Shown: positions 9,535 through 43,941 of the stretch, piece after piece
Position numbering within the stretch: the stretch's first letter is position 1
Layout of the letters: each line of letters starts with the position of its first letter
Assembly: GCF_018977255.1 (NCBI RefSeq)
Contig: NW_024704743.1
Span: 1,550,001-1,614,000 of the forward strand
Reading direction: 5' to 3'
Length of the DNA stretch: 64,000 nucleotides
Origin: Callorhinchus milii
Taxonomy: Eukaryota
Position numbers and translations under genes: made by a program
Notes under the pieces: model-generated
Seen by the model: the letters and a program-made list of their open reading frames with translations, nothing else
The model's database searches: none
Told to the model about the DNA's origin: nothing

Positions 9535-9865
9535 ATAATAATAATAATAATAATAATCCTTGCATTTGATATAGCGCTTTTCACGTCAGGAGGACGTCCC
9601 AAAGCGCTTCACAGAACACACTGTAAAGTGAATTGACTGTATATTTGTGGGCGAACGCGCAGCCAATTGCGCACAGCAATGTCCCACAAACAGTCGTAGA
9701 TTGAAAATGACCAATTTATTATTGTTTTTGGTTTTTTGGAGGGATTATTATTAGGCTCTGTGTGGAGTAAGGAAACTTGCCCGAGGTTTGGCCCTCTGCC
9801 TGGAATTGAACTCAGGTCTCTCGCTTGCAAAGCGAGTGCTCTAACCACTGAGCTACAGGACTCCA
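9535..9865 (-). mobile_element. tRNA-headed SINE, internally deleted subfamily with L2-like tail
   Basis: Closely matches 38593-38915. Confidence 0.88.
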
Positions 9866-10313: not shown

Positions 10314-10346
<33 letters not shown>

Positions 10347-10816: not shown

Positions 10817-10852
<36 letters not shown>

Positions 10853-12127: not shown

Positions 12128-12178
<51 letters not shown>

Positions 12179-13612: not shown

Positions 13613-13650
<38 letters not shown>

Positions 13651-15231
13651 GGTCCTGATGGTGATGTGAAGCTCCTGTTGATTAACATTACCCGGAGGTT
13701 CCTGACCTGCTTTGCCAGCGTCCGACATTCGAGAGCTGTCTCGCACCTGTCTTGAGTTGGCGAACGTTTGCCAATGTGAATTCTAACGAGGCGACGGCTT
13801 CCTCCAGGGGTTCACGTCATCGCTGGATACAATCTCCGGATCGCACGGACCCTGGTTAATGAGTCTCCGATACAGACTCCCTTCAACCGTGGACGGAAAG
13901 AACCTCCACTTATATCACGGCCCATCTCATCACAGAGAACCTTCCCAAAACACCTCGATTGGAATAATACCAATCCTTGGATCCGGGAAGGTCTCATCAC
14001 TACGTCAAAACGTCTCGAGGGGCTTTGTGGGCTGCGGCGTACAGTCGTGGTGTTTTGCGGGTGAACGCAACAATTGTGCAGCCGTGAAAAGCAACACGAC
14101 CGCATTTTATTTGGGGGATTGTTGGCCAGGACACCCGGGGAGAGAGAGAGAGAGAGAGTGAGAGAGAGAGAGAGAGAGAGAGGGGGGGGAGAGAGAGAGG
14201 GAAAAACTCCCTTCGCTTTTCAAGCAGTGCCGTAGGATTTTTAATGTCCACCTGAACAGGCAGAGTCAAGACCTTGGGTTTAATGTCTCATCCAAAGGAT
14301 GGTCCCTCCCTCCCTCCCTCCCTCCCTCCCACACCGGTCTCAAGACCCTCCTCTGCGATGAGACGTGCCTTTCGGTCGCCCCCCCTACCCCCCCCGCCCT
14401 CCAGTGCCTTGGAAGCTACGTCCACCTGAGGCGTGTAAATGGCGTGTGTTTTGTCGTTGTTGCTGTTGTCGTTTGTTTACAGCGATCGGAAGAGCTGCGG
14501 CACTCTCCGGACGCAGCGATCACTGCAGCATTCGCTCCCTCGCCTTTGCTCGCAGCGTCGGAGTTGACCCGGTGGTCTCGAGAGGGTTGCCGTGGAATCA
14601 CCCCAGGCTGACTAAGCTCTCAGCTCGGCTCAGCTCCGAGCTCCCTCTGCACCTCAGCCGCGCTCGAAACGCACCGTGGGGGGGGGTTCTTGGTGGGCCG
14701 GCAGGAGCCGAGGGGGCCAGCGATCAAGAGCAATAACAATAACGTCCCTGGAGACGTCCCAAAGCTCCTCGCGCAATCCACGGGGAGTTGGGGAGTGAGT
14801 CAAGGTGGGAGAGGTGGGGAGGTGAAGGGATTTGAGGCCGAGTGTGAGGATCTTGAAAGGGGTCCTTGGGAGCCGGTGGAGGCTGGCGGGGACTGGGGCG
14901 ATGGGGGTACGGAGTTTCGGGCGGGTGGAGTTATGCGGGCGGCGGTGTGTGGCTGGTGGGGCTGGGGAGAGGGTCAAGGAGGGCGTTGGAACGGTCGAGC
15001 CAGGAAGGTGACCAACACGCGTTGGGGTACAGTGCGTCGTAATGAGTGGATTTGCTGGGTATTTTGTGGGCCGAACGCGGCAGCCAATCGCGCACAGCAG
15101 CGTCCCCACAAACAGTGGCCAAATTATTATTATTAATTTTGAAGGGATTATTACCCCCGGGGAAAGCCATCCTCCCATCGACTTACAACCGGGTTCCTAC
15201 CGACTGCTGGTAAACAGAGCCGCGCGCGCGC

Positions 15232-15262
<31 letters not shown>

Positions 15263-16174
15263 GAGTGAGGAAACTTGCCCAACGTTTCCTCCCGCCCGGG
15301 AATCGAACTCGGGTCCTCTCGCTTGCGAGGCGAGTGCTCGAACCACTGAGCTCCGGGGACTCCAGAGGGAGCGGTGTTCTGTGATATCTGGTCTGCCATC
15401 TACCAGCTCCACCTGCTGGAACATGGCAAAGTTTCCTTTATTTAGCACAAACTCACGGGCGCTGATCGCCCTTTGACGGACGGACGGACGGGGTGCGTCT
15501 GACACCCGTCAGCGTTGCTTGAGAGTCTCCCAAACGACAGGTGACATTCCCGTGGGTCGGAGCAGCAATGGTGAGGGCCCAGTCGCTCGCGGGATTAAAG
15601 GCTAAGGATGTGCCGACAACCACAACAACTTGCATTTTACACGGCAATCCTCTCACTGGGCGAAGAGGAAGGTCTTCGGGTGCGACCTGAAGATGAGGGA
15701 GGAAGGGGGCGAGGCAGAGGGAAGGATATACAGAGAGAGAGAGAGAGAGAGAGTTTCGGGGCATAGCGGCTGAAAGCCCGGCCGCGGACGGTGGAACGGA
15801 GGGGGCGAGGGATGGGTGGGGGGGGGGTCAAGCAGGAGGCCGGAGCCGGTCACGGAAACGGTGGGTAGACTCCGCGAAAATAAACCAAGGTTAAACTACA
15901 GCAACAAATTGCGATGCAAAATCCACATTTATATAGGGTTTCGGAGGGCAAGTCAAAGGGGTTTAAAAGGCCTGGAGTGGGCAAAAGGGGGAAGGGGATT
16001 AATGACAACTGTACACAGTAAAATCTCACGCAGGTTTTATCTTTATACGTCTTATCGTGTAAGTCATAAGTGCACCCGAATCAGCTTCCTACCGAAAAAC
16101 ACTTCGATTCCTTCGCACTTCGTATTTTTACGAAGCGAATCATCTCCTAACTCGTAATGCCGCCGTAATAATAA

Positions 16175-18304
16175 CAACAACAACAACAACAACAAGATTC
16201 CATTTATAGAGCGCCTTTCACGTCAGGAGGACGTCCCAAGGCGCTGCACAGTTGGGTCATGACCCGAGCAGGGGGGAAATGGTCAGGGTGAGGGGAGGGA
16301 AGGGAGGGAGAGAGGAGGGGGAAATGGTCAGGGTGAGGGGAGGGAAGGGAGGGAGCGAGGAGGAGGAAGAGAGTCGAGAGGGGAGCTGAAGGCACGGTCA
16401 AAGAGAAAGGTTTTGAGACCGGCCTTGAAGGAGGAAAGGGAGGAAGCAAGGCGAAGGCACTGGGGGATGGAGTTCCAGAGCCTCGGGGCTGAGAGGCTGA
16501 AGGCCCGACCACCGATAGTAGGGCGGTTGGGGCGGGGGACGTGGAGCAGACCGGAGCCAGAGGAACGGAGGGTACGGGCAGGTAGGTAGGGGGATAGTAG
16601 GTTGGAGAGGTAGGAGGGAGCAAGGCCGTGAATGGCCTTGTAGGTGAGGATGAGGATCTTGAAATCAATCCTCTGGGGGATGGGGAGCCAGTGGAGGCGA
16701 GCGAGGGTGGGAGTGATGTGGTCCCGAAGCCTGGTGCGGGAAAGTACACGAGCTGCAGAGTTCTGAATGACCTGCAGCTTGTGGAGGGAGGTGGCGGGAA
16801 GGCCGGCGAGGAGAGAGTTCCCATAGTCCAGCCTTGAGGTGACAAAGGCGTGAACCAGGGTTTCAGCAGCGTGAGGGGTGAGGTAGTGCCGTAGTCTGGC
16901 GATGTTCCGGAGGTGATGGAAGGCGGTGCCAGTTGTGGTGCGGATGTGAGGGAGAAAGGACAGCTCAGGGTCGAACAAAACGCCGAGGTTCCTGACTGGC
17001 TTTGAGAGGTGGAGAGTGCAGCCTTGGATGCTGATGGTGTCAGCGCCTGAGGTGCGGAGGCGCTGACGTGAGCCAATCAGGAGGGCCTCGGTTTTTTGCA
17101 CGTTGAGCTGAAGAAAGTTGTCTCTCGTCCAGGACTCGATGTCGGACAGGCAGGCTGTCAGGACATCGGTGGTCGTGGAGTTGAGAGTAGAGGAGGAAAG
17201 GTAGAGTTGGGTGTCATCCGCATACATGTGGAAGTTAACCCCATGTTTGCGGATGATGTCACCAAGGGGGAGCATATAGAGGGTGAAGAGGAGGGGACCG
17301 AGGACAGAGCCCTGAGGGACACCACATGAGACAGTACGGGGGGTGGAGGAGAAGCCATTCGTTGAGACGAAGTGAAGACGGTGAGAAAGGTACGACCTAA
17401 ACCATTCAAGGACAGTGCCTTGAAAGTTGAGGTGGGAGGACAAGCGGTGGAGTAGGATAGTGTGGTCGACCGTATCGAATGCTGCCGATAGGTCGAGGAG
17501 GACGAGGAGACAGAGGGAGCCCTGGTCACAGATGGTCAGGATATCATTGGTGACCTTGACCAGGGCAGTTTCTGTGCTATGAGCAGCACGGAAACCTGAC
17601 TGAAGGGGTTCAAAAAGAGAATGGGTGGAGAGGAAAGAGCGCAGTTGGGAGGCGACAACTCTTTCCAAGACCTTGGAGAGAAAGGGGAGGTTGGAGATGG
17701 GCCGGTAGCTTGATAGCTGCGACGCATCAAGGGAGGGTTTTTTCAGGGTGGGCGTGATGATGGCAGTTTTTAATGGAATGGGGACAGAGCCAGAGGAGAG
17801 GGACAGGTTTATGATGTCAGTGATGTGTGGGACAAGAAAATGGAGCTGGGAGATAAGGAGTGGAGTGGGGATGGGGTCAAGGGAGCAGGTGGTTGGTTTT
17901 AGGGATAGGATGAGTTCAGTGACAGAGGGTGGGGAAACGGGTACGAAGGTGTGTAGGGGAGGATGGGTAGGAGTCGGAGTGTGGGAGGGAAGGGGTGGGT
18001 GGTGGGTGGAAGTTGGAGGGGAAGTGACCGCGGAGCGGATTCCCTTGATCTTGGATTCAAGGAAATCCAGCATCTCCTCGCAGTGAAGGTTGGAGGAGAT
18101 GACCTGCGCGGGGTGGCGGGGGGGACGGAGGAGTCGGGATGTGGTGGAAAACAGTAGCCTGGGGTTGTTCTTCGCCTCCAGGATTATCCTGGAGTAGAAG
18201 GACGACTTGGCCGAGGCTAGAGTGGAGCGGTAAATTTTGAGGAGGTCCAGCCAGATTTGTCGGTGGACCGTTAAGCCGGATTTGACAAAGGTGCGCTCAC
18301 CTTT
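16175..18304 (-). mobile_element. Young 5'-truncated L2-clade LINE with uninterrupted ORF2 (reverse transcriptase)
   Basis: The frame is open from ~18298 to the stop at 16328 (~656 aa; the track ORF is 581 aa from the first Met). Motifs [53 protein letters not shown]. It has a 3' stem-loop and a (TTG)n tail. Confidence 0.95.
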
Positions 18305-19392
18305 ATTATTATTATAATAATAATAATAATAATAATAATGATGTCGCTCCTTATCACATCATTGAGACAACAACAATAACAATAACAACAACGACAGCGA
18401 CATGAACTTATATACCCAGCTCTCAGAGGCGTCTCGAAGCGCTTCACAAAATATACTGTAAAGTGAATTGACTGTGTACGTTGCTGGACCGAGGTACCCC
18501 CTCGCAGTTTAGACTACTGATTAAGTCGGATTTTATACCACTCACGCACGTTTGCCTGCAATAATAGCCATAACAATAAATAAATAATAATAATAGTCCT
18601 CGCATTTTTACACCGCGCCTGATCACGTCTTCGAGACGTCTCAAAGCGCTTCGCAGGATACACTAAACTGCAGTGACTTTGTGTTTTGTGGGTGAAACGC
18701 GGCAGCCAATTGCGCACAGCGACGTCCCCGCCAACAGCCGCGGGTTGAAGAAGTGACCGCATTATACGAAACAGACAGATATTTTGCGATGTGGAGGTGT
18801 GTGTGTGGGGGGTGTGGTGGGGGTGAAGGGGGGATGGGGGTGATGGGGGGGTGAGGGTAGGGATCGAAGAGGAACGAGCTGAAGATGGGGGAGGAAGGGG
18901 GCGAGGCGGAGGGATTGAGGGAGAGGGTCTGGAGCCTGCACGGCGGCAAAAGGCAAAAAAGATCTTCGATGAAAACCTTCGTCAACTGGTTCCTGGTTTC
19001 GGAGTCTGGAGGACAGGGATGGGTGGAGGAGGAAGAGGAAGAGGAGGGAGCAGAGTGTTTAGACCACGGTGTCAGTTCACAGCGCTCCAAGTCTGGACGC
19101 ACTCACCTGCAATGCAAACAGTTGGGAAGAAATAGGTTACAAATACTATGTATTTTTGTGGCTGAAACGCTGCAGTCAACAGTGGGTTGAGTCACTACAT
19201 TTTCCTTGAGGGATTATTCCCTGCCCAGGAAAGCGATTGTATACCCCATACTCGACCCTCCCCCCCCTCCCTCCCCGTCGAAGATTTCAGACCGGTGAAC
19301 CTTACTCACCCAAACCAGTTGCATCCCCCTCAGGAAGTAACTGGTGCAAACTCTGTTCTGATTGAATCCGTTAAAAGATTTGGTAAAGGGAG

Positions 19393-19423
<31 letters not shown>

Positions 19424-19599
19424 AGAGGTGGGAGGAGGGGCAGAGGGGGAGACGGGGGTGAGAGAGTGGGGTGGGAGTGGGGTTGTGGGGCGCAGTGGTG
19501 GGGGAATGGGGTGAGGATCGTTCCTCCAAATCGCAGGGAAGTGTAGTCCAATCTGTTGATGGGACAGGAAGGAAATGAGGCGACACAGAATGGCATCGA

Positions 19600-20615
19600 T
19601 CAACAAGGGGTGTCCATCTGGCTGTTGGCCACCACTGGGACAGCTCCGTAACTGTCCACGTGGCGTCTCAGCCATCTTCGCTGCACTTCAGACTGCACCT
19701 GTCCGGGCACAACAACAACAACAACAGCAGCTTGTACTTATATAGCGTCCCTCCACACAGGGCAGGGTCTCAGAGCACTGACTCCGAGCCGGGGGGTGTG
19801 GGTGGGGGGAGGGGGGAGGGGGGGAGGTGGGCGTAAGTACGGTCGAAGAGGAAGGTTTTCAGGCGGGACTTGAAAGAGGGGAGAGAGGGGGGGGCAGGTG
19901 GAGGGATTCAGGGAGAGCGTTCCAGAATCTCGGGCGTAGCGGCTGAAAGCTGACCGGGTGGTGGATTGGGGGGAGTGAGGAGGTCGGACAGGGAGGGAGG
20001 GAGGGAGGGGCCGGGGAATGAAAGGGAATTGAACACGAGAGCGAGAGGATCTTGAAGTGGACCCGTTGGGTGACGGGGAGCCAAGTGGAGCCTGGGCCAG
20101 AACTGGTGAGATGTGGGGGACGGAGTTTGTTCCGGGTCAGTATTGCGGGACAATAAACTGGTCCACTTACCTCTTGGTTGAGAAAGCAATACAGGACTCC
20201 CACTATGAAACCCTGTACACAGAGAGAGAGAGAGAGAGACACAAACTCAGAGCCTCGTCGGGAACAGGAAATTACTGACTGTATCTGGGAGAATATCGGC
20301 CAGAACACAGGGAGAAACTCGCTTAACGTCTCATTCAAAGGACGTCACCTCCAGTAATGTCGAATTCCACCCCCTCCCTTCCCCCTTCCCCCCAGCTCTG
20401 AACTAGAGCATCAGTTGACGTCCTAAGGCACTGGACAGTCAGGGGTTTGGATCCGAGCAGTGGGTGCGGGGGGGGTGGTGTATGGGAAGGTGGAGGGCTA
20501 GGATTGGGACTAGGGCAAGGACGGTCGAAGAGGAGGGTCTTGAGATGTGCCTTGAAGGAGGCAACAGAAGGAGCAAGATTATTACCCCGGGGAAAGCGAT
20601 CTGAGGCGCGCGCGC

Positions 20616-20646
<31 letters not shown>

Positions 20647-21413
20647 GAGTGAGGAAACTTGCCCAACTTTTCCTCTGCCCCGGGAATCGAACCCGGGTCC
20701 TCTCGCTTGCGAGGCGAGTGCTCTAACCCCTGAGCTCCGGGGACTCCACACAGGACCTGTTGCTATGACTGTACCTGAAATGATCCGATGCAGAGATCAA
20801 GGTAGAGCTTGACAGCGTGGACGACGTGATCGGGTGGGAAAGCACATATGATGTAGTGCACCCCGAATAGGGGGATCAGGAGCAGAGTGGACTTTACCAG
20901 TCGCCTACCGGAGAGGTATTAAAATATCAATTATTATATCAAACAGCAACAACGACAAAATTAGAGTTACACAGGGCCTTGGAGGAGGCGAGGGAGGGGA
21001 CGAGGCGAAGGGGGCAGAGAAGCTGAAAGCCCGAACGCTGATGGTGGGGCGGGCCGGGCGGGGGGGGGAGACATGAAGCAGGTCGGAGCTTGAACGGAGA
21101 GGAGTATCAGGAGTATCACTGAGGTGGGAGGGGTCAAGGCCGTTGAGGGCTTTGAAGGCGGGGATGAGGATGTTGAAACTCTATCCTCTGGGGGATGGGG
21201 AAGCCAGTGGAGCCGGGCGAGGGTGGCCGTGATGGGGTGATGGGGGGTGGTGCGGGAGAGGACACGAGCTGCAGAGTTCTGGATGGTCCGCAACCTGTGG
21301 AGGGAAGAGCTGGGGAGGCCGCCAAGCTGGGAGTCATCTTGGAACATCAACCCAGGCCTTCGCCTACCTGTACTGGGAGGAGTTGACCATGTGGATCTCC
21401 CGAGGGTTAAGCT
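19600..21413 (-). pseudogene. GHRHR: Partial inverted duplicate of GHRHR: last 46 nt of exon 10 (21368-21413), exon 11 (20775-20904), exon 12 (20171-20212), exon 13 (19600-19698)
   Basis: The reverse complement matches the + strand exons, and splice sites are retained. Exons 1-9 are absent. It may be the other haplotype rather than a true paralog. Confidence 0.8.
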
Positions 21414-22060
21414 CTCTCTCAGTCTCTCTCTCTCTCTCTCTCTCTCCCCCTCTCAGTCTCTCTCTCTCTCCCTCTCAGTCTCACTCTCGGATAGAAAGTT
21501 TACGCTAAGGTGACCCCATTTTCCGGTCAAGTCAGTACCTGGGCGAGGTCACAGGTTAAGGCCACCTCTCTCTCCCCCCTCTCTCTCTCTCTCCCTCTCC
21601 CCCTCGCTCTCCCCCTCGCTCTCTCCCTCCCTCCCTCTCTCGCTGCGCTTGACATCTTTATAAGCTGTTGTTTCACGTTTATTGGGAAGTAGGTGGTTCC
21701 GCTTGTGTGTGTGTGTGTGTGTGAGAGCGTATGGGTAAGGGTTCCGTCTACCTTCCCATCACCGCCCACTGAGTATAACAGAGCCCGAAGCAGAGTGTAT
21801 GTGTGTGGGTGGGGGTGGGTGGGTGGGTGGGCGCGTTGGTGGGTGTGTGTGGGTTGGGGTGGATTGGAGTGAGTCCGACTGGGTTAGACGAGGTTGCGTT
21901 GGGTGAGAGCAGGTCAGGGGTGAGGGTCAGAGTCAGAGTCAGGGTCAGGGTGGGGTTGTGATGGGTTAAAGAGCGAGGCTGATTCCCCTCTCGCCCCCTC
22001 TCTCCCCCTCTCCCTCTCGCTCTCGCTCGCTCGCTCGCTCGCTCGCTCGCTCGCAACGGA

Positions 22061-22111
22061 ATGATCTCCGTCGGACTGAGCTGGACGTTGTGCAGTTTGT
22101 TCGTTTTCGGA
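22061..22111 (+). CDS. GHRHR: GHRHR exon 1 (signal peptide [17 protein letters not shown])
   Basis: ATG plus 17 mostly hydrophobic codons, ending at a consensus GTAAGT donor in phase 0 that joins exon 2 (VNSILHPEC). Confidence 0.8.
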
Positions 22112-24015
22112 GTAAGTACAACATAATGACCTTTACAGTGTCCGGACCGCGACTCTGCTAACTTCCCCCCACCCCCAACGCACTCCCACTCCCACCTCCC
22201 ACCCCTGTCCCCCTCGCCCCCCCCCCCATCCCCCACACCCTAAACACCGTCTCTGCGTCTCTTCGTGCCTCACTCACCCACTCAGGTGAGTAAGTTCCTC
22301 TTTTACGGTCAGGAATGCCCCCCCAAAAAATCCTTGATCCATTCCTACCCTCAGGATCTCTCTCTCTGGCTCTCTCTCTGTCTCTCTCTCTGTCTCTCTC
22401 TCTGTCTCTCTGAGAGAGACAAAATAATAATAAGTTGGTCACTTCAACCCGCGGCTGTTTGCGGGGACGCTGCTGTGCGCAATTGGCTGCCGCGTTTCGC
22501 CCACAAGACACACAGTCACTACACTTGACAGTATATTCTGTGAAGCGCTTTGAGACATCAAATGCAAGGATTATTATTATTATTATTATTATTATTATTT
22601 CGGGATTCAATCTCAGTTTTGGTTACTCCACAACTTAACCTGCCCCCTTTTTCTCTCTCTCGTTGTTTATTTCCCTTTCTCTCTATCCCTCTCTCTCTCT
22701 TTCTCTCTCTCACTCTTTCGGTTTCTTTTTCTTTTTCGTATTTGACAGACAGTTCACTTTACAGCGGGTTCTTTGAAGTGCTTTTTTTTTTAAAAATCCG
22801 AACGCCGTGGTCTGAATACTTAAAGTTGCGCAGAATTTTTGGGGGTTTATTTGAAATCCTTAATTTGAGATGTTTTAATAATAATAATAATAATAATCGC
22901 TGCGTTTGATTTAGCGCCTTATCACGTCTTCGAGACGTCTCAAAGCGCTTCAGAATATACTGTAGAAAGTGAATTGACTGTACAGTTGTGGAAGAAACAC
23001 CACAAATACACCTGGACGAGCAGCGGCGAAAAAAATGCCAGACAGAGCTCCAAATGGCCGAGCTGCGTGTGGGTTTGGCTGGTTCGACTCCAGCAGTTAC
23101 TCCAACTCACTCTCTGGGCAGATTGGGCAAGTTTCCTCACTCCACACACACACACACACACTCACACGCACACACACACACACACACACACGCGCACACA
23201 CACACGCGCGCCTCTGGTTACCGGCAGTCAGTAGGAACCCGGTTGTTAGTCGACGGGCGGATGGCTTTTCCGGGGATAATAATTGCTTTAAAAAATAATA
23301 ATAAATCGGTCACTCAATCCACGGCTGTTTGTGGGGGGCGCTGCCGCGCGCAATTGGCCGCCGCGGTTTGCCCACAAAACGTGCAGTCAATTAACTTAAC
23401 AGTGCACCCTGTGAAGCGCTTTGAGGCGTCTCTAAGACGCGATCAGTCGCTGTGTCAAAGGCGAGGATTAATATTATTATTGGTGGTGACCCGGAGTGCT
23501 CTTCCGCTCTTTCAGGTGAACAGCATTCTGCACCCAGAGTGTGAGATCGTCAAGGGGTTGAAGCGTAACCAGGACAAGTGCTTAAGAGGCATTCGAGACA
23601 ATCGGAATACATCCGTGCAAGGTAGGCAACTCTTTAAACCACACGTCACACTGCTCGTGACCGGTTAAACCCCCCCCACCCCGAAAAAGCACTTCGAAGC
23701 CCAATTAAATTAATAGCGCTTCACAAACGAGCTTTTAATTCCCCCAAAAAGTGGCGTTTCAAAACCCTCATGAAGTTTATTGCCTCCTCCGTTCAGCTTT
23801 TAACTTCCTTAAAGACCGCGGTTTTGACCCAGTAAAATTAACAGCTTAACATCCTGACTTATTCATTGCCCCTCCGCAGCCCCCCCCCCTCCTCCCTCCC
23901 ACTCGCCCGTTAATTGTGTCCTGTTCAACAAACCATCTCCCACCCCCCCACCCACTCAAATAATTATTGGTTGTTCACTCCATGGCTCTCTGTGGGCAAA
24001 ACTGGCTGCTGCCTT

Positions 24016-24046
<31 letters not shown>

Positions 24047-24906
24047 TCATCCTTGCATTTAGTACAGCGCCTTTTCACATCATTGAGACGTACATAGGAA
24101 GGAGTGTTGAGGGGAGGGAGTTGGAGGAATCCAGGATGCAGTTATAGCCAACACACGACAACTTGCCACAACAATTTACACAGCGCTCTTTATGCGAGGC
24201 AACGTCTCGGAGCGATGAACAGCGACTCCGAGCCGTGGTGGGGTAGTTTGGGGGGGGGGGGGAAAGGAAAGCGGAGTTGACCGTATGTACGGTCGATACA
24301 GAGGGGCAGAAGGACTGAAAACCTGTCCCCTCTTCTCCAACCACCTGCCCAGGACACGTGAAGCATTTTGAGACTTCCACTCTGCTTTGGTCACTCAATC
24401 CACCACGGTTTGTGTGTTTCTGTGTGTGTGTGTGTGTGGGGGGGGGGGAGGAGACGCTGCTGTGGGCAATTGGCTGCCGCGTTTCACCCACAAAACGCAC
24501 AGTCACTTTACGGTGTATCCCGCGAAGCGCTTTGAGACGTGTCGAAGGCGTGATGAGGGGCTGTATCAATTGGAAGGGTTATTATTATTATTATTACTAA
24601 TCGCGCGAGGTGAAGAACGCTGTATATCAATGTAACTTGCGTTGCCTCTTGTGTTTCTCCAGGTTGTAGGAAGCTATGGGACGGAGTGGTGTGCTGGCCT
24701 CATGCTCCTCGTGGGGCAACAGTTAATGTCTCCTGCCCGGCTATCTTCTCCCACTTCACCGCCAACACAGGTAAAAAAAATATACATCTGCTCAACCGGG
24801 TGTCTGACCCAACACGAGGAAACCCACCACCGTGGCTTCAGAGTCTCCCAAGGCAGTCTGAGACCTCCACCCCCGGGCATCGCCTACACGTAGAAACCTG
24901 GATATG

Positions 24907-24944
<38 letters not shown>

Positions 24945-27900
24945 GGAGGGACGCCCCCCTGTTTACCTAATTCCGGAGAGTATTAGGCGCAGGTTGGCGA
25001 GAGCCAAGGCTTGTGGGGTGAGGGGGGGAATCCAGAGTGTGGGTTGGTGGTGGGTAACGGCTGGAGTCTAACCAGCATGGCTTGTCCGGCCAGCTTTCCC
25101 GCTGCTTGACGGGCTGGGACCACCCTCCCCGTTAGTTAGTTAGTTAGTTAGTTAGTTAGTCAGGGCTTTGGCTCCGGGGTTACCAGGAGCCGAGGGGGAG
25201 GATTTCCTGCCCCCGGTGACCGGTCGGCCCTTCCAGGTCCTGCCGATGGATGGGTCAGGGCCGGGCTGAGCTGCCGTCAGCCGTGAGTGCCCTGGGATAC
25301 CGCGGCCCCTCACCATCACAGGAATTTCCATTGCATTTATAAAGGGATCTGAATGAGTCTGGGTGACAGGGATGGCAAGCTATTTAAAGAGGTAAATTAC
25401 CTGTTAAACAGCCATTGCCTTTGATGGCTTTAATATCTCACGCCAATAGCACTTAACAGTGAATTGTAAATAACTTTATGTATTTGCTCACTGTGTGACC
25501 ATCTGTCCTGGATCATAATAAATAACCTTTTGGAGAGGGATTACATTAAATCTGTAAAGCCCTGAGCAATAAAAGGTTTCTGTTAACCTTCAGGCTTGAT
25601 ATGGAAGCGAGTTGGTTAGAGCAGCGTGAAACCTGAGGCAAGTTTCCTTACGCCACGCGCGCCACACACACACACGCACACACACACACGCGCACATACA
25701 CGCGCACACACACGCACACACACACACGGCTCTGTGTAGGAACCCGGTTGTTAGTCATTTGGCGGATCGCTGTTCCGGGGGTTAACAATAACCCCTTCAA
25801 AAAAAAAAAAAAATAATAATAATAATAATTTGGTCATTTCAATCCACGGCTGTTTGTGGCGGACGCCGCTGGGCGCAAGTGGCTGCCGAGTTTCGCCCAG
25901 AAAAATGCACAGTCACTACACGTCGCAGTATGTTCTGTGAAGCGCGTTGTCGAATGGTATATCGGGTCCGCGGTCCAGTTACTCAGACAGTTCCGAGGGC
26001 CACCGCACCACAAACCACCCGTCGCCTTTTAGAAGCTATGTCAGTTCTTTTTCTTGCGGCTCGCAAGGGTCCGTCAGCAGGAACTGCACCCGCAGGGGCT
26101 GGTCCAAGGTCTTCCCGGCGTATCTCTCCGCCTGCATCGTGGACGATGATCTGCCCACTGATGAGGTAAGACCCTCACACACGTCTACACATCCCTTCGT
26201 GGCCCCCCCCTCCCTCCCTTCCCTCCCTCCCTCCTTCTCTCTCTCTTTCCCTCCGACCTCCTTTCTTCCCACCACTACCACCCACACTCCACCACACGTC
26301 CCCTTAAAGATCTCCTGTTCGAAACGAGAAGGGAGTTTTTGGTCGCGGCAAATTCAGTCACTACACTTCACGAAAAAAAATCCTCGTGAAGCGCTTTGAG
26401 ACGTCCTCCCGACATGAAAGGCGCTCTACCAACCGCAAGGAGTATCATCCTTATTATTCTCGCAATGGATATAGCAACTCCATAAGGTAACACCTCACTA
26501 ATAATGATAACAATAATCATAATAATAACCCTTCGCACGTGATTATATCTCAAAGCACTTCACGGGACACACTACCACCGTGGATTATCTGGTGTGTTTG
26601 GTTGGGGTGCGCAGCGATGCGAGTGAGTCTGTGACACAGGGAGAAAGGTTTCAAGTAGTTTTCGTTCCTAAATTGATTAATCAATCAATCAATAAATAAA
26701 TAAATAATGTCCACGTTTTAATTCATAAGTTAAAAAAATAGTTTTCATTCGTAAATCAAAAATAAATTGTTTTAGTTGAGTAAACAAAAAAAAACTTGAA
26801 ACCCCCCCCCCCGCCCCACAACCTTCTGACTCAGAGACGAAAGAGAGAGAGAGAGAGAGCGAGAGCGAGAGCGAGAGCCAGGCTGTCGCACAGCCAAATA
26901 TTGTTGTTGTTGTCACTATTGCAGGTCTCCTACTTTGGGACGATAAAGGTGATCTACACAGTGGGACACTCTGCGTCTCTGCTCGTGCTCACGGCGGCTG
27001 TCATCATCTTACTGCTATTCAGGTGAGTTGGTCCTGGTTCACCCTCCGAGCCAAAGCCCTGACTAACGGGTGGTCGGGTGGTCCTCGCTGGACAAGCAGC
27101 GGGAGAGCTTGGCCAGACAGCGCCCTCGTCGGCCAAGCCCTGTGGGTTTAGCTGGTTAGACCCCAGCAGCGAGAGCAGATGTAATAAATGCAAGTTGTTG
27201 TTGTTGTTGTTGCTGCTGTTGTTATCGAATGCCAGGATTACCCGTGTCTCTGTGTCTCCGGATCATGCAGGAGATTGCACTGCACGAGAAATTACATCCA
27301 CATCCAGCTCTTCATCACCTTCATCCTGCGCGGCGTCTCCGTGTTCGTTAAGGACGCTGTTCTCTTTGGCGATGGGGACATTGACCACTGCACGTTTTCT
27401 ACGGTAACGGTTTGGTACCGCCCTCACCTCCTGAGTCACCGGGTGGCGGGTTCAAGCCTCGTGTCTTGAGATCTCCCCTCCCCTCATCTCCTCCTCACCA
27501 CCCCAGTCCTAGTGCTTTGGGACGTCCTTCTCATACTCGGGTTCAAAACCCTTCACTCCCTGGACCCTCCCTCCCTCCCTCCTTTCCTCCCTCCCTCCCC
27601 CCAATCCACCACCCGGTCAGCGCCTCTGCTCGACTGGCCCCGGCTCCTGCCCGTCCCTCAAGGGACGATAATAATAATAATCCCTTGAAATGAAAATAGT
27701 AAATCGGTCGCTTCAACCCATGGCTGTTTGTGGGGAATACGGCAATCGGCTGCCGCGTTTCGCCCAGAGAACACGCAGTCACTACACTTGGCCGTGTTAT
27801 CCTGTGAAGCGCTTTTGAGGCGTCTCGAAGGCGCGACGAGGCGCCGGGTCGAACGCAAGGATTACAAGGACCGTGTTTGACACCTTTGCCTCCCACCCCC

Positions 27901-30517
27901 AGGCCGGCTGCAAGACCTCGGTGGTGTTCTGCTACTTCTGTGTCATGGCCAATCACTTCTGGCTGCTTGTGGAGGGGCTGTACCTCAACTCCCTCCTCCT
28001 GGCCTCCTTCACGCACAGCAGAAATACTTCTGGTGGTGGAGCGTGCTTGGTTGGGGTAAGTATTGATATGCCCCCTTCCCCACACCCACACACACCCCCC
28101 CCCCCCCACTCCCTCCTTCCCTTCCTCCCCTCTTTCCCCCTTTCCCACCCTTTCCACCTCCGTTCCTTGGTCCCTTCCCCTTCCACCACACTCCGCCCTC
28201 CCACTTTCTTGGTCCCTTTCCCCCCCCCCCCCACCCCACTATTCTCTCTCACGGACGCAGGGACTTATTTAAGAAGCAGCTCGATGATGGGATGTAACAG
28301 GATAGTGATTCGGGAGGGTTGAGACCGGATCCGAACCAATCCTATGACCCAGATAAGGGAGTTTCTTTTTCCCTCTGTGCTCTGGCCGACAATTCCCCCC
28401 CAAATAAGATCAGTCACTCACTTTCGCGGCTGTCTGTGGGGGACGCTGCTGTGCGCAATTGGCTGCCGCGTTTCGCCCACAAAATATACAGTCAATTCAC
28501 TTTACTGTTTACTCTGTGAAGCCCTTTGAGACGGCTCAAGAATGTAATAAAGCGCTGTATCAAATGCAATGATTATTATTATTATTATTATTATTAACTG
28601 TGGAACGGAATTCTATTGCTCTCTGAGTTTGGTTAAAATGTACCTTTTCTTTGAGGTGTGCCTGCTGTTTGCCTGACGGGTTGGGTGATTGCAAAGTCTT
28701 GCTTCGAAGACACTGAGTGAGTATAATAATAATAATAATAATACTGATAACAATCCTGCCATTTGATCCGGCGCCTTATCACGTCTTCGAGACGTCTCAA
28801 AACGCTTCACGGGATAGAAGGGTGACTGAAGGCGCGGTCGAAGAGGAGGGCCTTGAAGGAGGCGAGGGAGGGGGAGGCGAGCGAGGCGGAGGGACTGTGG
28901 GATGGAGAGACACGCTGGATTCCTTGCTAAGTCTCTGCTGTTGTGACCAGGTGCTGGGATGTGATTGAAGATTCTCCGTATTGGTGGATAACAAAGGCCC
29001 CAATTGTCATCTCCGTCATGGTGAGCGGTCGCCTGTTAAACCCTTCACACCGAGACTCTCAACACAGTATAGTGTCAGAACGCACTGCCTGGAGGGTGGG
29101 GTGGGGTGGGGTGGGGGGGTTGGGGGGGGGGGGGTTGGGGGCGGGCGTGGAAGCAGAATTGAGAGCAGCTTTCCAAAGGGAATTGGGGAGGTATGTGAAA
29201 AGGAACGGCTATTGGGGTAGGAGCGGGAGGAGTGGGACTGGTTGGGTGGCTCTTTCGAAGAGTATGGCACAGACACAATGGGAGGAATCCTTCTGCGCTG
29301 CGAGTATCTATGATTCTAAGAATACTACAGTCTGCGGTAACATTATTTACGTTTGTTGAGAGGGGTTCTGGACTATAACAACGACAACAATAAAATTACA
29401 TTTGTATAGCGCCTTTCACGTCGGGATGGGTGGGGGGGGGGAAAGCACGGTCAAAGAGGACGGTCTTGAGATAGGTCTTGAAGGTGGCGAGGGAGGGGGG
29501 GGGATTGGATGCGAGAAGGAGGGACTGTGGGATGGAGTTCCAGACTATCAGAGCTTTGACTGGTACAAAGACCTTGCGGTCGAAGGGGAGGGTAGGTCTT
29601 CGATCGGGAATTGTAAAATGGGGAGAGAAGGGGCCAGGCCGTGGGATTGAGGGAGAGTACTCATCAGAGTCAGGTGTTCTCATGGGAATCTCCTCCCCAT
29701 TTCCTCCCACAGGTAAACTTCGTGCTCTTTTTCAATATCATCAGGATATTGTTCCAGAAGCTTAACCCTCGGGAGATCCACATGGTCAACTCCTCCCAGT
29801 ACAGGTAGGCGAAGGCCTGGGTTGATGTTCCAAGATGACTCCCAGCTTGGCCTCCCCAGCTCTTCCCTCCACAGGTTGCGGACCATCCAGAACTCTGCAG
29901 CTCGTGTCCTCTCCCGCACCACCCCATCACCCCCATCACGGCCACCCTCGCCCGGCTCCACTGGCTCCCCATCCCCCAGAGGATAGAGTTCAACATCCTC
30001 ATCCCCGCCTTCAAAGCCCTCAACGGCCTTGACCCCTCCCACCTCAGTGATACTCCTGATACTCCTCTCCGTTCAAGCTCCGACCTGCTTCATGTCTCCC
30101 CCCCCCGCCCGGCCCGCCCCACCATCAGCGTTCGGGCTTTCAGCTTCTCTGCCCCCTTCGCCTCGTCCCCTCCCTCGCCTCCTCCAAGGCCCTGTGTAAC
30201 TCTAATTTTGTCGTTGTTGCTGTTTGATATAATAATTTATATTTTAATACCTCTCCGGTAGGCGACTGGTAAAGTCCACTCTGCTCCTGATCCCCCTATT
30301 CGGGGTGCACTACATCATATGTGCTTTCCCACCCGATCACGTCGTCCACGCTGTCAAGCTCTACCTTGATCTCTGCATCGGATCATTTCAGGTACAGTCA
30401 TAGCAACAGGTCCTGTGTGGAGTCCCCGGAGCTCAGGGTTAGAGCACTCGCCTCGCAAGCGAGAGGACCCGGGTTCGATTCCCGGGGCAGAGGAAAAGTT
30501 GGGCAAGTTTCCTCACT

Positions 30518-30553
<36 letters not shown>

Positions 30554-31571
30554 GCGCGCGCGCCTCAGATCGCTTTCCCCGGGGTAATAATCTTGCTCCT
30601 TCTGTTGCCTCCTTCAAGGCACATCTCAAGACCCTCCTCTTCGACCGTCCTTGCCCTAGTCCCAATCCTAGCCCTCCACCTTCCCATACACCACCCCCCC
30701 CGCACCCACTGCTCGGATCCAAACCCCTGACTGTCCAGTGCCTTAGGACGTCAACTGATGCTCTAGTTCAGAGCTGGGGGGAAGGGGGAAGGGAGGGGGG
30801 GGGTGGAATTCTATATTACTGGAGGTGACGTCCTTTGAATGAGACGTTAAGCGAGTTTCTCCCTGTGTCCTGGCCGATATTCTCCCAGATACAGTCAGTA
30901 ATTTCCTGTTCCCGACGAGGCTCTGAGTTTGTGTCTCTCTCTCTCTCTCTGTGTGTACAGGGTTTCATAGTGGGAGTCCTGTATTGCTTTCTCAACCAAG
31001 AGGTAAGTGGACCAGTTTATTGTCCCGCAATACTGACCCGGAACAAACTCCGTCCCCCACATCTCACCAGTTCTGGCTCAGGCTCCACTTGGCTCCCCGT
31101 CACCCAACGGGTCCACTTCAAGATCCTCTCGCTCTCGTGTTCAATTCCCTTTCACTCCCCGGCCCCTCCCTCCCTCCCTGTCTGACCTCCTCACTCCCCC
31201 CAATCCACCACCCGGTCAGCTTTCAGCCGCTACGCCCGAGATTCTGGAACGCTCTCCCTCAATCCCTCCACCTGCCCCCCCCTCTCTCCCCTCTTTCAAG
31301 TCCCGCCTGAAAACCTTCCTCTTCGACCGTACTTACGCCCACCTCCCCCACCTCCCCCCCTCCCCCCACCCACACCCCCCGGCTCGGAGTCAGTGCTCTG
31401 AGACCCTGCCCTGTGTGGAGGGACGCTATATAAGTACAAGCTGCTGTTGTTGTTGTTGTTGTGCCCGGACAGGTGCAGTCTGAAGTGCAGCGAAGATGGC
31501 TGAGACGCCACGTGGACAGTTACGGAGCTGTCCCAGTGGTGGCCAACAGCCAGATGGACACCCCTTGTTGA
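22061..31571 (+). CDS. GHRHR: Growth hormone-releasing hormone receptor (class B1 GPCR), 13 coding exons; ~413 aa if the 1-nt deficit in exon 7 is corrected
   Basis: Hand-spliced exons: 22061-22111, 23516-23621, 24663-24770, 26068-26165, 26925-27022, 27271-27403, 27903-28055, 28656-28716, 28951-29020, 29713-29804, 30262-30391, 30961-31002, 31473-31571. All introns are GT-AG, and phases are compatible except at exon 7. Motifs [68 protein letters not shown] and [18 protein letters not shown] match GHRHR as I recall it from amniotes. Adjacency to MINDY4 matches the human GHRHR locus. Confidence 0.9.
23516..23621 (+). CDS. GHRHR: GHRHR exon 2 ([35 protein letters not shown])
   Basis: ttcag acceptor, gtagg donor; HPEC motif and first extracellular-domain cysteines. 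Confidence 0.9.
24663..24770 (+). CDS. GHRHR: GHRHR exon 3 ([36 protein letters not shown])
   Basis: ctccag/gtaaa boundaries; class B hormone-binding domain C..WD..CWP..V..CP motif. Confidence 0.93.
24795..25310 (-). repeat. Unclassified interspersed repeat, long copy in GHRHR intron 3
   Basis: Reverse-complement similarity to 40665-41185 and 10670-10975; internal (TAGT)n. Confidence 0.82.
26068..26165 (+). CDS. GHRHR: GHRHR exon 4 ([33 protein letters not shown])
   Basis: aag/gtaag boundaries; RNCT..GWS..FP.Y..AC motif. Confidence 0.93.
26925..27022 (+). CDS. GHRHR: GHRHR exon 5, TM1 ([33 protein letters not shown])
   Basis: ttgcag/gtgag boundaries; YTVGHS TM1 motif. Confidence 0.93.
27271..27403 (+). 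CDS. GHRHR: GHRHR exon 6, TM2 ([44 protein letters not shown])
   Basis: atgcag/gtaac boundaries; LHCTRNYIH class B signature. Confidence 0.95.
27903..28055 (+). CDS. GHRHR: GHRHR exon 7, TM3-TM4, with a 1-nt frameshift near 28021-28025
   Basis: [40 protein letters not shown] is in one frame and [10 protein letters not shown] follows in a shifted frame. The exon is 153 nt; 154 nt are needed to join exon 8. Confidence 0.9.
28656..28716 (+). CDS. GHRHR: GHRHR exon 8 ([20 protein letters not shown])
   Basis: cttttctttgag/gtgagt boundaries, 61 nt; G.P....W...K..FEDT motif. Confidence 0.9.
28951..29020 (+). CDS. GHRHR: GHRHR exon 9 ([23 protein letters not shown])
   Basis: accag/gtgag boundaries; CWD and WW..K.PI motifs. 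Confidence 0.93.
29713..29804 (+). CDS. GHRHR: GHRHR exon 10 ([31 protein letters not shown])
   Basis: cccacag/gtagg boundaries; VNF.LF.NIIRIL motif. Confidence 0.93.
29835..30200 (+). mobile_element. L2 3' fragment in GHRHR intron 10 (mirrored at ~20970-21335 on -)
   Basis: [12 protein letters not shown]...[15 protein letters not shown] homology to the L2 ORF2 C-terminus. Confidence 0.8.
30262..30391 (+). CDS. GHRHR: GHRHR exon 11, TM6-TM7 ([43 protein letters not shown])
   Basis: cggtag/gtaca boundaries; [14 protein letters not shown] and GSFQ motifs. Confidence 0.95.
30961..31002 (+). CDS. GHRHR: GHRHR exon 12 ([14 protein letters not shown])
   Basis: gtacag/gtaag boundaries; the typical 42-nt class B TM7 exon. 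Confidence 0.95.
31473..31571 (+). CDS. GHRHR: GHRHR exon 13 coding part ([32 protein letters not shown])
   Basis: ggacag acceptor; helix 8 VQ.E..RRW motif; TGA at 31569-31571. Confidence 0.85.
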   Translation: MQSEVQRRWLRRHVDSYGAVPVVANSQMDTPC

Positions 31572-32835
31572 TCGATGCCATTCTGTGTCGCCTCATTTCC
31601 TTCCTGTCCCCATCAACAGATTGGACTACACTTCCCTGCGATTTGGAGGAACGATCCTCACCCCATTCCCCCACCACTGCGCCCCACAACCCCACTCCCA
31701 CCCCCACTCTCTCACCCCCGTCTCCCCCTCTGCCCCCTCCTCCCACCTCTCTCCCGCCCCCCCCCCCCCCCCCCCCCCCTGCTCTCCCTTTACCAAATCT
31801 TTTAACGGATTCAATCAGAACAGAGTTTGCACCAGTTACTTCCTGAGGGGGATGCAACTGGTTTGGGTGAGTAAGGTTCACCGGTCTGAAATCTTCGACG
31901 GGGAGGGAGGGGGGGGAGAGTCGAGTATGGGGTATACAATCGCTTTCCTGGGCAGGGAATAATCCCTCAAGGAAAATGTAGTGACTCAACCCACTGTTGA
32001 CTGCAGCGTTTCAGCCACAAAAATACATAGTATTTGTAACCTATTTCTTCCCAACTGTTTGCATTGCAGGTGAGTGCGTCCAGACTTGGAGCGCTGTGAA
32101 CTGACACCGTGGTCTAAACACTCTGCTCCCTCCTCTTCCTCTTCCTCCTCCACCCATCCCTGTCCTCCAGACTCCGAAACCAGGAACCAGTTGACGAAGG
32201 TTTTCATCGAAGATCTTTTTTGCCTTTTGCCGCCGTGCAGGCTCCAGACCCTCTCCCTCAATCCCTCCGCCTCGCCCCCTTCCTCCCCCATCTTCAGCTC
32301 GTTCCTCTTCGATCCCTACCCTCACCCCCCCATCACCCCCATCCCCCCTTCACCCCCACCACACCCCCACACACACACCTCCACATCGCAAAATATCTGT
32401 CTGTTTCGTATAATGCGGTCACTTCTTCAACCCGCGGCTGTTGGCGGGGACGTCGCTGTGCGCAATTGGCTGCCGCGTTTCACCCACAAAACACACAGTC
32501 ACTACACTTTACGGGGTATCCTGCGAAGCGCTTGGAGACGTCTCGAAGACGTGATCAGGCGCGGTGTAAAAATGCGAGGACTATTATTATTATTTATTTA
32601 TTGTTATGGCTATTATTGCAGGCAAACGTGCGTGAGTGGTATAAAATCCGACTTAATCAGTAGTCTAAACTGCGAGGGGGTACCTCGGTCCAGCAACGTA
32701 CACAGTCAATTCACTTTACAGTATATTTTGTGAAGCGCTTCGAGACGCCTCTGAGAGCTGGGTATATAAGTTCATGTCGCTGTCGTTGTCGTTGTTGTTA
32801 TTGTTGTTGTCTCAATGATGTGATAAGGAGCGACA

Positions 32836-32869
<34 letters not shown>

Positions 32870-33774
32870 GGCGGCATTACGAGTTAGGAGATGATTCGCT
32901 TCGTAAAAATACGAAGTGCGAAGGAATCGAAGTGTTTTTCGGTAGGAAGCTGATTCGGGTGCACTTATGACTTACACGATAAGACGTATAAAGATAAAAC
33001 CTGCGTGAGATTTTACTGTGTACAGTTGTCATTAATCCCCTTCCCCCTTTTGCCCACTCCAGGCCCTTTAAACCCCTTTGACTTGCCCTCCGAAACCCTA
33101 TATAAATGTGGATTTTGCATCGCAATTTGTTGCTGTAGTTTAACCTTGGTTTATTTTCGCGGAGTCTACCCACCGTTTCCGTGACCGGCTCCGGCCTCCT
33201 GCTTGACCACCCCCCCCCCCCACCCATCCCTCGCCCCCTCCGTTCCACCGTCCGCGGCCGGGCTTTCAGCCGCTACGCCCCGAAACTCTCTCTCTCTCTC
33301 TCTCTGTATATCCTTCCCTCTGCCTAGCCCCCTTCCTCCCTCATCTTCAGGTCGCAGCCGAAGACCTTCCTCTTCGCCCAGTGAGAGGATTGCCGTGTAA
33401 AATGCAAGTTGTTGTGGTTGTCGGCACATCCTTAGCCTTTAATCCCGCGAGCGACTGGGCCCTCACCATTGCTGCTCCGACCCACGGGAATGTCACCTGT
33501 CGTTTGGGAGACTCTCAAGCAACGCTGACGGGTGTCAGACGCACCCCGTCCGTCCGTCCGTCAAAGGGCGATCAGCGCCCGTGAGTTTGTGCTAAATAAA
33601 GGAAACTTTGCCATGTTCCAGCAGGTGGAGCTGGTAGATGGCAGACCAGATATCACAGAACACCGCTCCCTCTGGAGTCCCCGGAGCTCAGTGGTTCGAG
33701 CACTCGCCTCGCAAGCGAGAGGACCCGGGTTCGATTCCCGGGCGGGAGGAAACGTTGGGCAAGTTTCCTCACTC

Positions 33775-33805
<31 letters not shown>

Positions 33806-33927
33806 GCGCGCGCGCGGCTCTGTTTACCAGCAGTCGGTAGGAACCCGGTTGTAAGTCGATGGGAGGATGGCTTTCCCCGGGGGTAATAATCCCTTCAAAA
33901 TTAATAATAATAATTTGGCCACTGTTT

Positions 33928-33957
33928 NNNNNNNNNNNNNNNNNNNNNNNNNNNNNN
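33928..33957. other. Assembly gap (30 N)
   Basis: Run of N. Confidence 1.
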
Positions 33958-34529
33958 CCCAATCCAGAGCATCGAGCAAATATCTGCGCGTCTTCTGCGA
34001 CGAGGCTAATATCTGGGTTTAGCGGTTGTTATTAACCCCCGGAAAAGCCATCCGCCAATCGGGTTCCAACACACAGAGGCGCGCGTGTGTGTGTGTGTGT
34101 GTGTGGAGTGAGGAAACTTGCCCAATGTCTCGCCCTGACCTGCCCGGGAATCGAACCCGGGTCCTCTCGCCCGCGAGGCGAGGGCTCTAACCCCTGAGCT
34201 CCTGGGACTCCTGTTGGTCCATGGCGTCTCACGCAGGAAACAGCTTTGTCAACACAAACTGCAAACTGATTGTGTGCCGAACAAATACAAATCTGGGCTT
34301 GAAGGTCCTTAATTGAGAGGAAGTGGTCATTAGGCACCGACCGCACGTCCTGTCCTCTCCGGCCGGGCTCTCACGGAATGGCGTGGAGTTGACCGGCGCA
34401 GGAAGCAAAAAAAAGTTCCCTCGAGAAGGTCGTTAAAACCCAACACAGTGGACTGTTGTTGATTTCCCTCCATACCCCGGCACCTCCCTTCCTCTCCGAC
34501 CTGCTTACCCCCCCCACCCAAACCCACTA

Positions 34530-34612
34530 CCCGCTGCCTCCGCTCCACCGGCTCCGGCCTCCGCTCCACCGGCTCCGGCCTCTGCTCCACCGGCTCCGGC
34601 CTCCGCTCCATG
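34530..34612. repeat. 21-bp tandem repeat (ccgctccaccggctccggcct), about 3.5 copies
   Basis: Directly visible; produces PEPVERR repeats in the ORF track. Confidence 0.9.
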
Positions 34613-34689
34613 ACCAGTGGACGCACTTTCAGCCACATCGCCCCCGAAACTCTGGCACTCTGTCCCCACGTGTGTTTTGAGGGCGAAAC

Positions 34690-35030
34690 GCGGCAGCCAA
34701 ATGGGCGTCGTTAGTGGAGAGTAAGCAGATCGGAGAGATAGGTGAGGTGTCAGGGCGTAAAGTCACTTCTTTACGTGATTGCGAGGATCTTCCAAATTGG
34801 AATCGTTCTGCAACGGGGGAGAGCCAGCGGATCCTGGTAGGAACTGGGCGATGGCGCCACGGAGTCTTGGTGCTGATGAGGATACAAGCAGCGGAGCTTC
34901 GAATGCATTGGATTTTACGAACGATGGAGTGTGAGGGACACCGGCAAGGAGCTCGCTCCGGAATAATCGAGGCGGGAGGTGAGGAATGCATCGATAAGGC
35001 TTTCGACCGCGTTGGGTCTCAGGTATTTCT
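34690..35030 (-). mobile_element. Old degenerate L2 fragment
   Basis: Remnant similarity to the AF.TSRLDY and R.HW segments of L2 ORF2. Confidence 0.55.
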
Positions 35031-43892: not shown

Positions 43893-43941
43893 TTACAGGA
43901 TTGGCTCTGTTCCGTTCCAGTCTATGACTGCTCCCTTCCAC
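43893..43941 (-). CDS. MINDY4: MINDY4 terminal coding exon ([15 protein letters not shown])
   Basis: ttgtgcag acceptor; TAA at 43895-43893. Confidence 0.92.

What the first reader, a model, noticed from the sequence alone, without database searches (positions are those of the whole stretch)
15110..33927. Near-identical inverted copy of the GHRHR 3' half: flipped-haplotype misassembly or recent inverted duplication
Seen: 15110-21413 is the reverse complement of 29759-33927, apart from scattered SNPs, homopolymer differences and a 2.1-kb L2 found only in the left arm. The right arm ends exactly at the N gap, and the left arm ends in the middle of exon 10. Inference: flipping 21414-33927 makes it overlap the left arm and collapse into a single minus-strand GHRHR, co-oriented with MINDY4 as at the human locus. 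A heterozygous L2 insertion would explain why the haplotypes did not merge. Otherwise this is a real, very young inverted duplication enclosing exons 1-9, which could recombine to invert them.
Basis: partly seen in the sequence, partly recalled or inferred. Interest (0 to 1): 0.75.

Follow-up and report, generated by a model that had tools for sequence, protein, structure and literature searches.

The report
False mirror copy of GHRHR end
The back half of an elephant-shark growth-hormone-releasing-hormone receptor gene appears twice, mirror-wise, in this sequence, most likely because the assembly kept both parental versions and placed one backwards, an ordinary kind of error rather than new biology.

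Summary
Observation confirmed. 15110-21413 is the reverse complement of 29759-33927, with 22 SNVs in 4,146 nt (0.53%), 20 small indels and a 2.1-kb LINE in the left arm only. The right arm stops at a 30-N gap; the left stops inside exon 10. The gene is a 13-exon GHRHR orthologue of Callorhinchus milii.

The arms behave as alleles. Contigs of four other runs differ from the window's single-copy DNA by the same 0.53%. Two arm differences segregate between runs. One contig carries a left-arm indel in cis with intron 9. Database gene models join exons 3-10 to left-arm alleles in one collinear gene. Contig depth on the arms is not doubled (weak). Flipping the middle block gives one 13-exon gene co-oriented with MINDY4.

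Best reading: heterotype false duplication with a flipped contig (0.8). A real duplication-flanked inversion on one chromosome of the sequenced animal is not excluded (0.15): its reads were not available, and the middle-plus-right block carries private alleles. A fixed duplication is very unlikely. The scan noted similar cases on other DNA of this genome.

The parts
15110..21413 (-). Left arm: GHRHR 3' part (last 46 nt of exon 10 to beyond exon 13), likely haplotype 1 in its true place and orientation
16170..18310 (-). 5'-truncated LINE (L2-like; clade label recalled) with an open 673-codon frame, in an (ATT)n run, absent from the right arm; ends approximate because both lie in short tandem repeats
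19600..19698 (-). Exon 13 copy (coding part)
20171..20212 (-). Exon 12 copy
20775..20904 (-). Exon 11 copy
21368..21413 (-). 3' half of exon 10, without its splice acceptor
21412..21488 (.). Gap-free inner junction (21413/21414) into a (CT)n microsatellite; 2-nt overlap
21414..29758 (+). Middle block: promoter region, exons 1-9 and 5' half of exon 10; likely flipped by the assembly
22061..31571 (+). Complete 13-exon GHRHR coding sequence (413 aa when exon 7 is read through with X): 22061-22111, 23516-23621, 24663-24770, 26068-26165, 26925-27022, 27271-27403, 27903-28055, 28656-28716, 28951-29020, 29713-29804, 30262-30391, 30961-31002, 31473-31571. Exon 1 is inferred from sequence only
27903..28055 (+). 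Exon 7 is one base short near 28018-28022 (frameshift), likely a consensus error
   Evidence: model P0003 reads in frame there
29759..33927 (+). Right arm, likely haplotype 2, with the empty LINE site at about 32838-32868; cut in mid-SINE at the gap
33928..33957 (.). Assembly gap, 30 N
43893..53562 (-). Last exons of MINDY4 (context; gives the neighbour's orientation); stop at 43893-43895
   Evidence: PF13898 at 47478-47657 and 53401-53562, E 2e-28 and 2.5e-20; for the last exon

Best explanation
The window holds one 13-exon GHRHR gene whose 3' part is present twice in mirror orientation, and the two copies are likely the animal's two alleles, kept apart by the assembler, with the 12.5-kb piece 21414-33927 likely placed backwards. 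Shown: the layout; allele-level divergence; arm differences that segregate between other runs; left-arm alleles in cis with the 5' half of the gene in other data. Inferred: the contig from the left (haplotype 1, with the LINE) ended in exon 10; a second contig (haplotype 2, without the LINE) held exons 1-13; the 2.1-kb indel and the scattered differences kept them from merging; scaffolding set the second contig in the orientation that avoids the overlap; one join was closed without N and the other stayed a gap. The true locus would be a single minus-strand GHRHR downstream of MINDY4.
For: (1) Arm-to-arm SNVs are 22 of 4,146 (0.53%). The 27 listed contig pieces of runs X3-X6 on single-copy DNA differ from the window at 48 of 9,105 letters (0.53%; Fisher p=1.0; only the pieces that the tool listed, 8 a run a call). 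(2) The 3-nt indel at 29848 is left-type in X6 and right-type in X3, X4, X5; site 31155/20018 is right-type in X6 and left-type in X4. (3) X6 record 25 (399 nt, 29515-29910) runs from intron 9 through the whole of exon 10 and carries the left-arm indel, so a left-arm allele sits in the intact gene. (4) Three C. milii UniRef models (P0001-P0003) hold middle-block exons and a whole exon 10, then read into intron 12 with the left-arm residue at 31078 and the left-arm stop codon at 31260. (5) Weak: per-contig depth on 22 arm pieces is 0.88 of the single-copy median and far from doubled; the tool warns that contig depth is no copy number. (6) The right arm ends at the gap in the middle of a SINE that runs on intact across 15109/15110 (8 family copies span it). 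(7) The middle block has an exon-7 frameshift that model P0003 lacks, and 3 of 3 covering runs add an A at 34406: the assembly has consensus errors here. (8) Flipping yields 13 exons once each, in order.
Against: No reads of the sequenced animal were available, so half depth and the absence of junction-spanning molecules are untested. The inner junction has no N gap, and the N gap lies outside the pair, not between the copies as in the textbook case. The other runs are nearer the left arm than the right (same six contigs: 7 versus 15 differences in 2,376 nt; left-arm pieces 8 of 2,651, 0.30%). At 30812, 30814, 31919 and 33066 all 3 of 3 covering runs show the left allele only, and the middle block also has letters that 4 of 4 runs lack (24778, 25365, 26017, 26588). 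So middle plus right arm is a rarer haplotype, which a recombination-sheltered real inversion would also give. The 0.53% baseline comes mostly (24 of 27 pieces) from that same middle block. The four runs are one study, and such contigs usually show one allele per site.
Confidence: 0.8

Rival explanations
1. A real duplication-flanked inversion on one chromosome of the sequenced animal (rare or private haplotype): a template switch in exon 10 copied the whole gene backwards and left the 3' stub in place. The stub would still recombine with standard chromosomes while the inverted gene is sheltered and gathers private changes.
For: Gap-free junction with a 2-nt overlap into a (CT)n run. The middle block and right arm carry private alleles, while the left arm looks like the common type. 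CNV-flanked inversions are the largest class of complex SV in humans (PMC5338099, passages).
Against: It needs its second breakpoint hidden in the gap, exactly where the right arm is cut in mid-SINE. Nothing in the four runs or the three gene models points to it, and right-arm alleles occur on ordinary-looking contigs in other runs (29848 in X3-X5; 31155 in X6). An uncollapsed divergent haplotype explains the same private alleles with fewer events, and false duplications favour heterozygous regions (PMC9516828, passages).
Confidence: 0.15
2. Homotype artefact: a chimeric fold-back long read, or error-laden reads, duplicated one haplotype.
For: Gap-free turn-around; 12 of 20 small indels are 1 nt; palindromic chimeric reads are a described cause (PMC9516828, passage).
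Against: The arms differ by a whole LINE insertion and by variants found in other runs on both sides; an 8.3-kb single-copy spacer is not what a simple fold-back gives.
Confidence: 0.03
3. A species-wide fixed inverted segmental duplication that brackets exons 1-9 and can flip them by recombination between the arms.
For: The layout alone would allow it; coding exons are identical in both arms (0 SNVs in 317 nt, chance 0.19).
Against: Arm differences segregate between runs and no listed single-contig row shows both arm alleles in one run (contigs can hide an allele); contig depth is not doubled (weak); database models join left-arm alleles to the 5' exons.
Confidence: 0.02

Closest known systems
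Heterotype false duplication with false exon gain (Ko et al. 2022, PMC9516828; passages seen)
   Same: Two near-identical copies of part of a gene on one scaffold, at allele-level divergence, beside an assembly gap, in a more heterozygous stretch; the paper also describes joins without N caused by wrong gap filling.
   Different: Here the copies are inverted (the word 'inversion' occurs 0 times in that paper's main text), and the N gap borders the outer end of one copy. The defining read-depth and read-pair tests could not be run.
CNV-flanked inversion, dupINV/INVdup (Collins et al. 2017, PMC5338099; passages seen)
   Same: Literal layout of the assembled sequence: an inverted segment with a duplication at one breakpoint.
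   Different: No read support for either breakpoint was found; one breakpoint would lie in a gap; the copies differ like alleles.
Vertebrate GHRHR (named 'ghrhr, like' in sharks and ray-finned fish databases)
   Same: HRM plus 7tm_2 domains; 66-69% identity to shark and ray proteins, sister to them with 100/99 support, inside a 100/99 clade with tetrapod GHRHR; best solved-structure match of model P0002 is human GHRHR.
   Different: No PRPR or GHRHR2 rows were in the tree; no AQP1 was found between it and MINDY4; ligand untested.

Membership tests
Heterotype false duplication (Ko et al. 2022) | Copies differ as two alleles do (haplotype-specific variants in both) | tested here: met
   By proxy in other runs, not by k-mers of the sequenced animal: 0.53% versus 0.53%, two segregating sites, left alleles in cis with the 5' exons
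Heterotype false duplication (Ko et al. 2022) | Half read depth on each copy in the sequenced animal | not testable with these tools
   Only assembled contigs were offered, none holding half of the stretch's words
Heterotype false duplication (Ko et al. 2022) | [quoted passage not shown] | tested here: inconclusive
   The N gap abuts the outer end of the right copy; the inner join has no N and its read support is untested
Heterotype false duplication (Ko et al. 2022) | Discordant read pairs across the copies | not testable with these tools
   No paired raw reads were offered
CNV-flanked inversion (dupINV/INVdup) | Inverted segment with a duplicated flank | tested here: met
   In the assembled sequence only; that the middle block is the inverted part rests on the two gene halves pointing opposite ways
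CNV-flanked inversion (dupINV/INVdup) | Both breakpoints supported by molecules | not testable with these tools
   No reads of the sequenced animal; the second breakpoint would lie in the gap
CNV-flanked inversion (dupINV/INVdup) | Raised copy number of the flank in carriers | tested here: inconclusive
   Not raised in X3-X6 by contig depth (weak), but these need not be carriers
GHRHR orthologue | Class B GPCR domains (HRM, 7tm_2) | tested here: met
   (E 5.7e-11 and 1e-09 on single exons)
GHRHR orthologue | Groups with tetrapod GHRHR in a tree that follows species order | tested here: met
   29 rows chosen by me; outgroups SCTR and PTH1R
GHRHR orthologue | Excluded from the PRPR and GHRHR2 clades | not tested
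   No such rows among the hits used; P0003 is labelled GHRHR2 and P0002 VIPR2 by their source, labels that look automatic
GHRHR orthologue | Lies next to the PAC1 receptor gene (PMC3537680, passage) | tested here: inconclusive
   No other class B GPCR exon in the window; PAC1 could lie left of base 1

The most novel reading that the evidence does not exclude
The sequenced elephant shark carries a real, old structural allele in which the whole GHRHR gene is flipped against its neighbours and sheltered from recombination, with a 3' stub left behind as a 4-kb inverted repeat that could re-invert exons 1-10. If the exon-7 frameshift were real too, this would be a natural GHRHR null allele in a wild cartilaginous fish.
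Probability: 0.12. Interest if true: 0.5.

Novelty: not a real feature. Interest (0 to 1): 0.1.

Why it matters
As an artefact it matters for curation only: the assembly would yield a frameshifted GHRHR, a false partial second copy and a wrong gene orientation in a species much used as the outgroup for jawed-vertebrate synteny. By-product: if the arms are alleles, a 2.1-kb LINE with an unbroken reverse-transcriptase frame is present on one chromosome only, which points to recent LINE activity. If the rival is right, it would be a structural allele of the growth-axis receptor that can be tested by PCR.

Tried and rejected
No whole genome is held for this window, so no second assembly copy or flanking contig could be searched. 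A first protein search used the wrong frame of exon 6 and found nothing; repeated in frame. Inner junction in X3-X6: no listed piece crosses 21413/21414, and mean depth in bin 21393-21773 is 0.31-0.45, what one contig ending at 21413 would give. I do not count this as evidence, because a filter removes some records and the stretch is CT-rich. State of the LINE site in other runs: unreadable, as the tool skips the (ATT)n run. What precedes 33958 in other runs: no loose end listed among 24 shown of 2,168. No overlap between 21414-22060 and 33958-35500 beyond simple repeats, so unknown DNA would lie between them after flipping. The joints tables were dominated by SINE noise and were not used. AQP1 between MINDY4 and GHRHR: 0 of 145 frames of 42 aa or more in 33958-43890 hit Pfam at E 0.01; shorter exons would be missed; the 156 frames listed for 1-15109 were not scanned. 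Literature: searches listed no paper on this locus's structure (listings and abstract starts only); subscription papers are not covered. The supplementary synteny figure S6 of PMC3537680 was not opened and may bear on gene order and on PRPR.
Full report
Observation. Self-BLAST shows two minus-strand matches, 18311-21413 with 32866-29759 (98.4%) and 15110-16195 with 33927-32839 (98.3%), and one N run at 33928-33957. A global alignment gives 22 SNVs in 4,146 columns (12 transitions, 10 transversions, none in coding exons), 20 small indels (12 of 1 nt) and a 2,143-nt left-only insertion in an (ATT)n run. The insertion has a 673-codon open frame with an RVT_1 domain; 'L2' is my recalled label for it. 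No target-site duplication can be called inside the microsatellite. The left arm ends in exon 10 and passes without a gap into a (CT)n run with 2 nt shared.

The gene. The plus strand from 22061 to 31571 holds 13 coding exons with canonical splice sites (exon 1 inferred from sequence alone). Exon 7 is one base short; read through with X the product is 413 aa without internal stops. The exon-6 peptide is 100% identical to three Callorhinchus milii UniRef models, and the next hits are shark and ray GHRHR-like proteins. In a 29-row tree the protein is sister to these (100/99) within a 100/99 clade that also holds ray-finned fish 'ghrhr, like' and tetrapod GHRHR; PRPR and GHRHR2 were not in the tree. 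MINDY4's last exons lie on the minus strand, ending at 43893. Flipping 21414-29758 onto the left arm gives all 13 exons once, in order, on the minus strand. That human GHRHR is co-oriented with MINDY4 is recalled; PMC3537680 (passages) says only that GHRHR lies next to PAC1, with AQP1 nearby in mammals.

Are the arms alleles or paralogues? Fourteen runs were listed; four (X3-X6, one study, contigs only, 38-41% of words) hold the stretch. They cover introns and differ from the window and from each other, so I take them as genomic DNA of other animals. I laid them on 18345-29758 (likeness 90) and on 29400-34600 (likeness 96). The 27 listed pieces on single-copy DNA differ from the window at 48 of 9,105 letters, 0.53%, equal to the arm-to-arm 0.53%. 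Two arm differences segregate: the 3-nt indel at 29848 is left-type in X6 and right-type in X3, X4 and X5; 31155/20018 is right-type in X6 and left-type in X4. Site 30238 is left-type in X3 and X6, and X5 shows cover without the left letter; the 1-nt indel at 31608 is right-type in X3, X4 and X5. In 4 of 4 runs one contig reads straight through exon 10 across 29758/29759, which both hypotheses expect; but X6's contig (29515-29910) does so while carrying the left-arm indel, so a left-arm allele lies in an intact gene. The three UniRef models give the same answer from another source: they hold middle-block exons and a whole exon 10, then run into intron 12 with the left-arm residue at 31078 and end at the stop codon that only the left arm has at 31260. 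P0001 also differs from the window's middle block at 24778, as 4 of 4 runs do, and at 29695. Per-contig depth on 22 arm pieces is 0.88 of the single-copy median; the tool warns that this is no copy number, so it is weak support.

Results against the simple picture. The other runs are nearer the left arm: on the same six contigs 7 differences against 15; at 30812, 30814, 31919 and 33066, 3 of 3 covering runs show only the left allele; and the middle block has at least four letters that 4 of 4 runs lack. The middle block and right arm are therefore a rarer haplotype, or partly consensus error. Also, 24 of the 27 baseline pieces lie in that block. A real inversion that shelters this block from recombination, with the left stub still recombining, predicts the same pattern. 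The inner junction has no N. These points keep the real-rearrangement reading alive.

Mechanism. Shown: layout, allele-level divergence, segregation, cis linkage of left alleles with the 5' exons, a right arm cut in mid-SINE at the gap while the SINE runs on across 15109/15110, and signs of consensus error nearby (exon 7; 34406). Inferred: two haplotype contigs overlapping by 4.2 kb failed to merge, likely because of the 2.1-kb LINE and local heterozygosity; the 12.5-kb contig was set in backwards; one join was closed without N. I give this 0.8, a real private or rare duplication-flanked inversion 0.15, a single-haplotype chimera 0.03 and a fixed duplication 0.02.

Comparison with known cases. 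It works like the heterotype false duplications of Ko et al. 2022 (PMC9516828, passages), whose marks are half depth, a gap or depth gap between copies, discordant pairs and single-copy k-mers; only the last could be tested, by proxy. Taken literally the layout is a CNV-flanked inversion (PMC5338099, passages). Searches listed nothing on this locus (listings and abstract starts only). Earlier notes of this scan report similar inverted copies or flipped blocks beside gaps on other DNA of this genome; they are unchecked notes and I do not count them as support.

Verdict. The sequence feature is there, but it is most likely not in the animal: interest 0.1. Long reads of the sequenced animal across 21413/21414 would decide it.

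Noticed in passing
window 16170-18310 (minus): 5'-truncated LINE with an unbroken 673-codon frame and RT domain, on one arm only, inserted in an (ATT)n run; its 3' tail is (TTG)n and its 5' junction has a short (ATA)n run, the reverse complement of the target. Suggests recent LINE activity; the other long copy in the window (57377-58778) is 77% alike and broken.
   Followed up: partly
window 28018-28022: One base missing in GHRHR exon 7 (frameshift); model P0003 and shark orthologues read in frame. Likely a consensus error.
   Followed up: partly
window 33958-43890: No aquaporin exon found between MINDY4 and GHRHR (0 of 145 frames hit Pfam), although AQP1 is near GHRHR in mammals; it may lie in the gap, elsewhere, or be lost here.
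   Followed up: partly
window 576-660 (minus): Exon-like stretch ending in a strong splice donor near 583, co-oriented with MINDY4; could be a first exon of the next gene (PAC1 receptor by expected gene order). Unverified.
   Followed up: no
P0001-P0003: The three database models of this gene miss exons 1, 2, 8, 9 and 13, read into intron 12, and bear three different names (unnamed class B receptor, VIPR2, GHRHR2); the window gives a fuller 413-aa model.
   Followed up: partly
window 1-34000 versus 38000-64000: GC falls from about 50-58% to about 43% right of 38000, with CpG counts per 2 kb roughly halving.
   Followed up: no
window 44882-45800: Fragment of a CR1-like retroelement (label recalled) inside the last MINDY4 intron, on the plus strand.
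   Followed up: no
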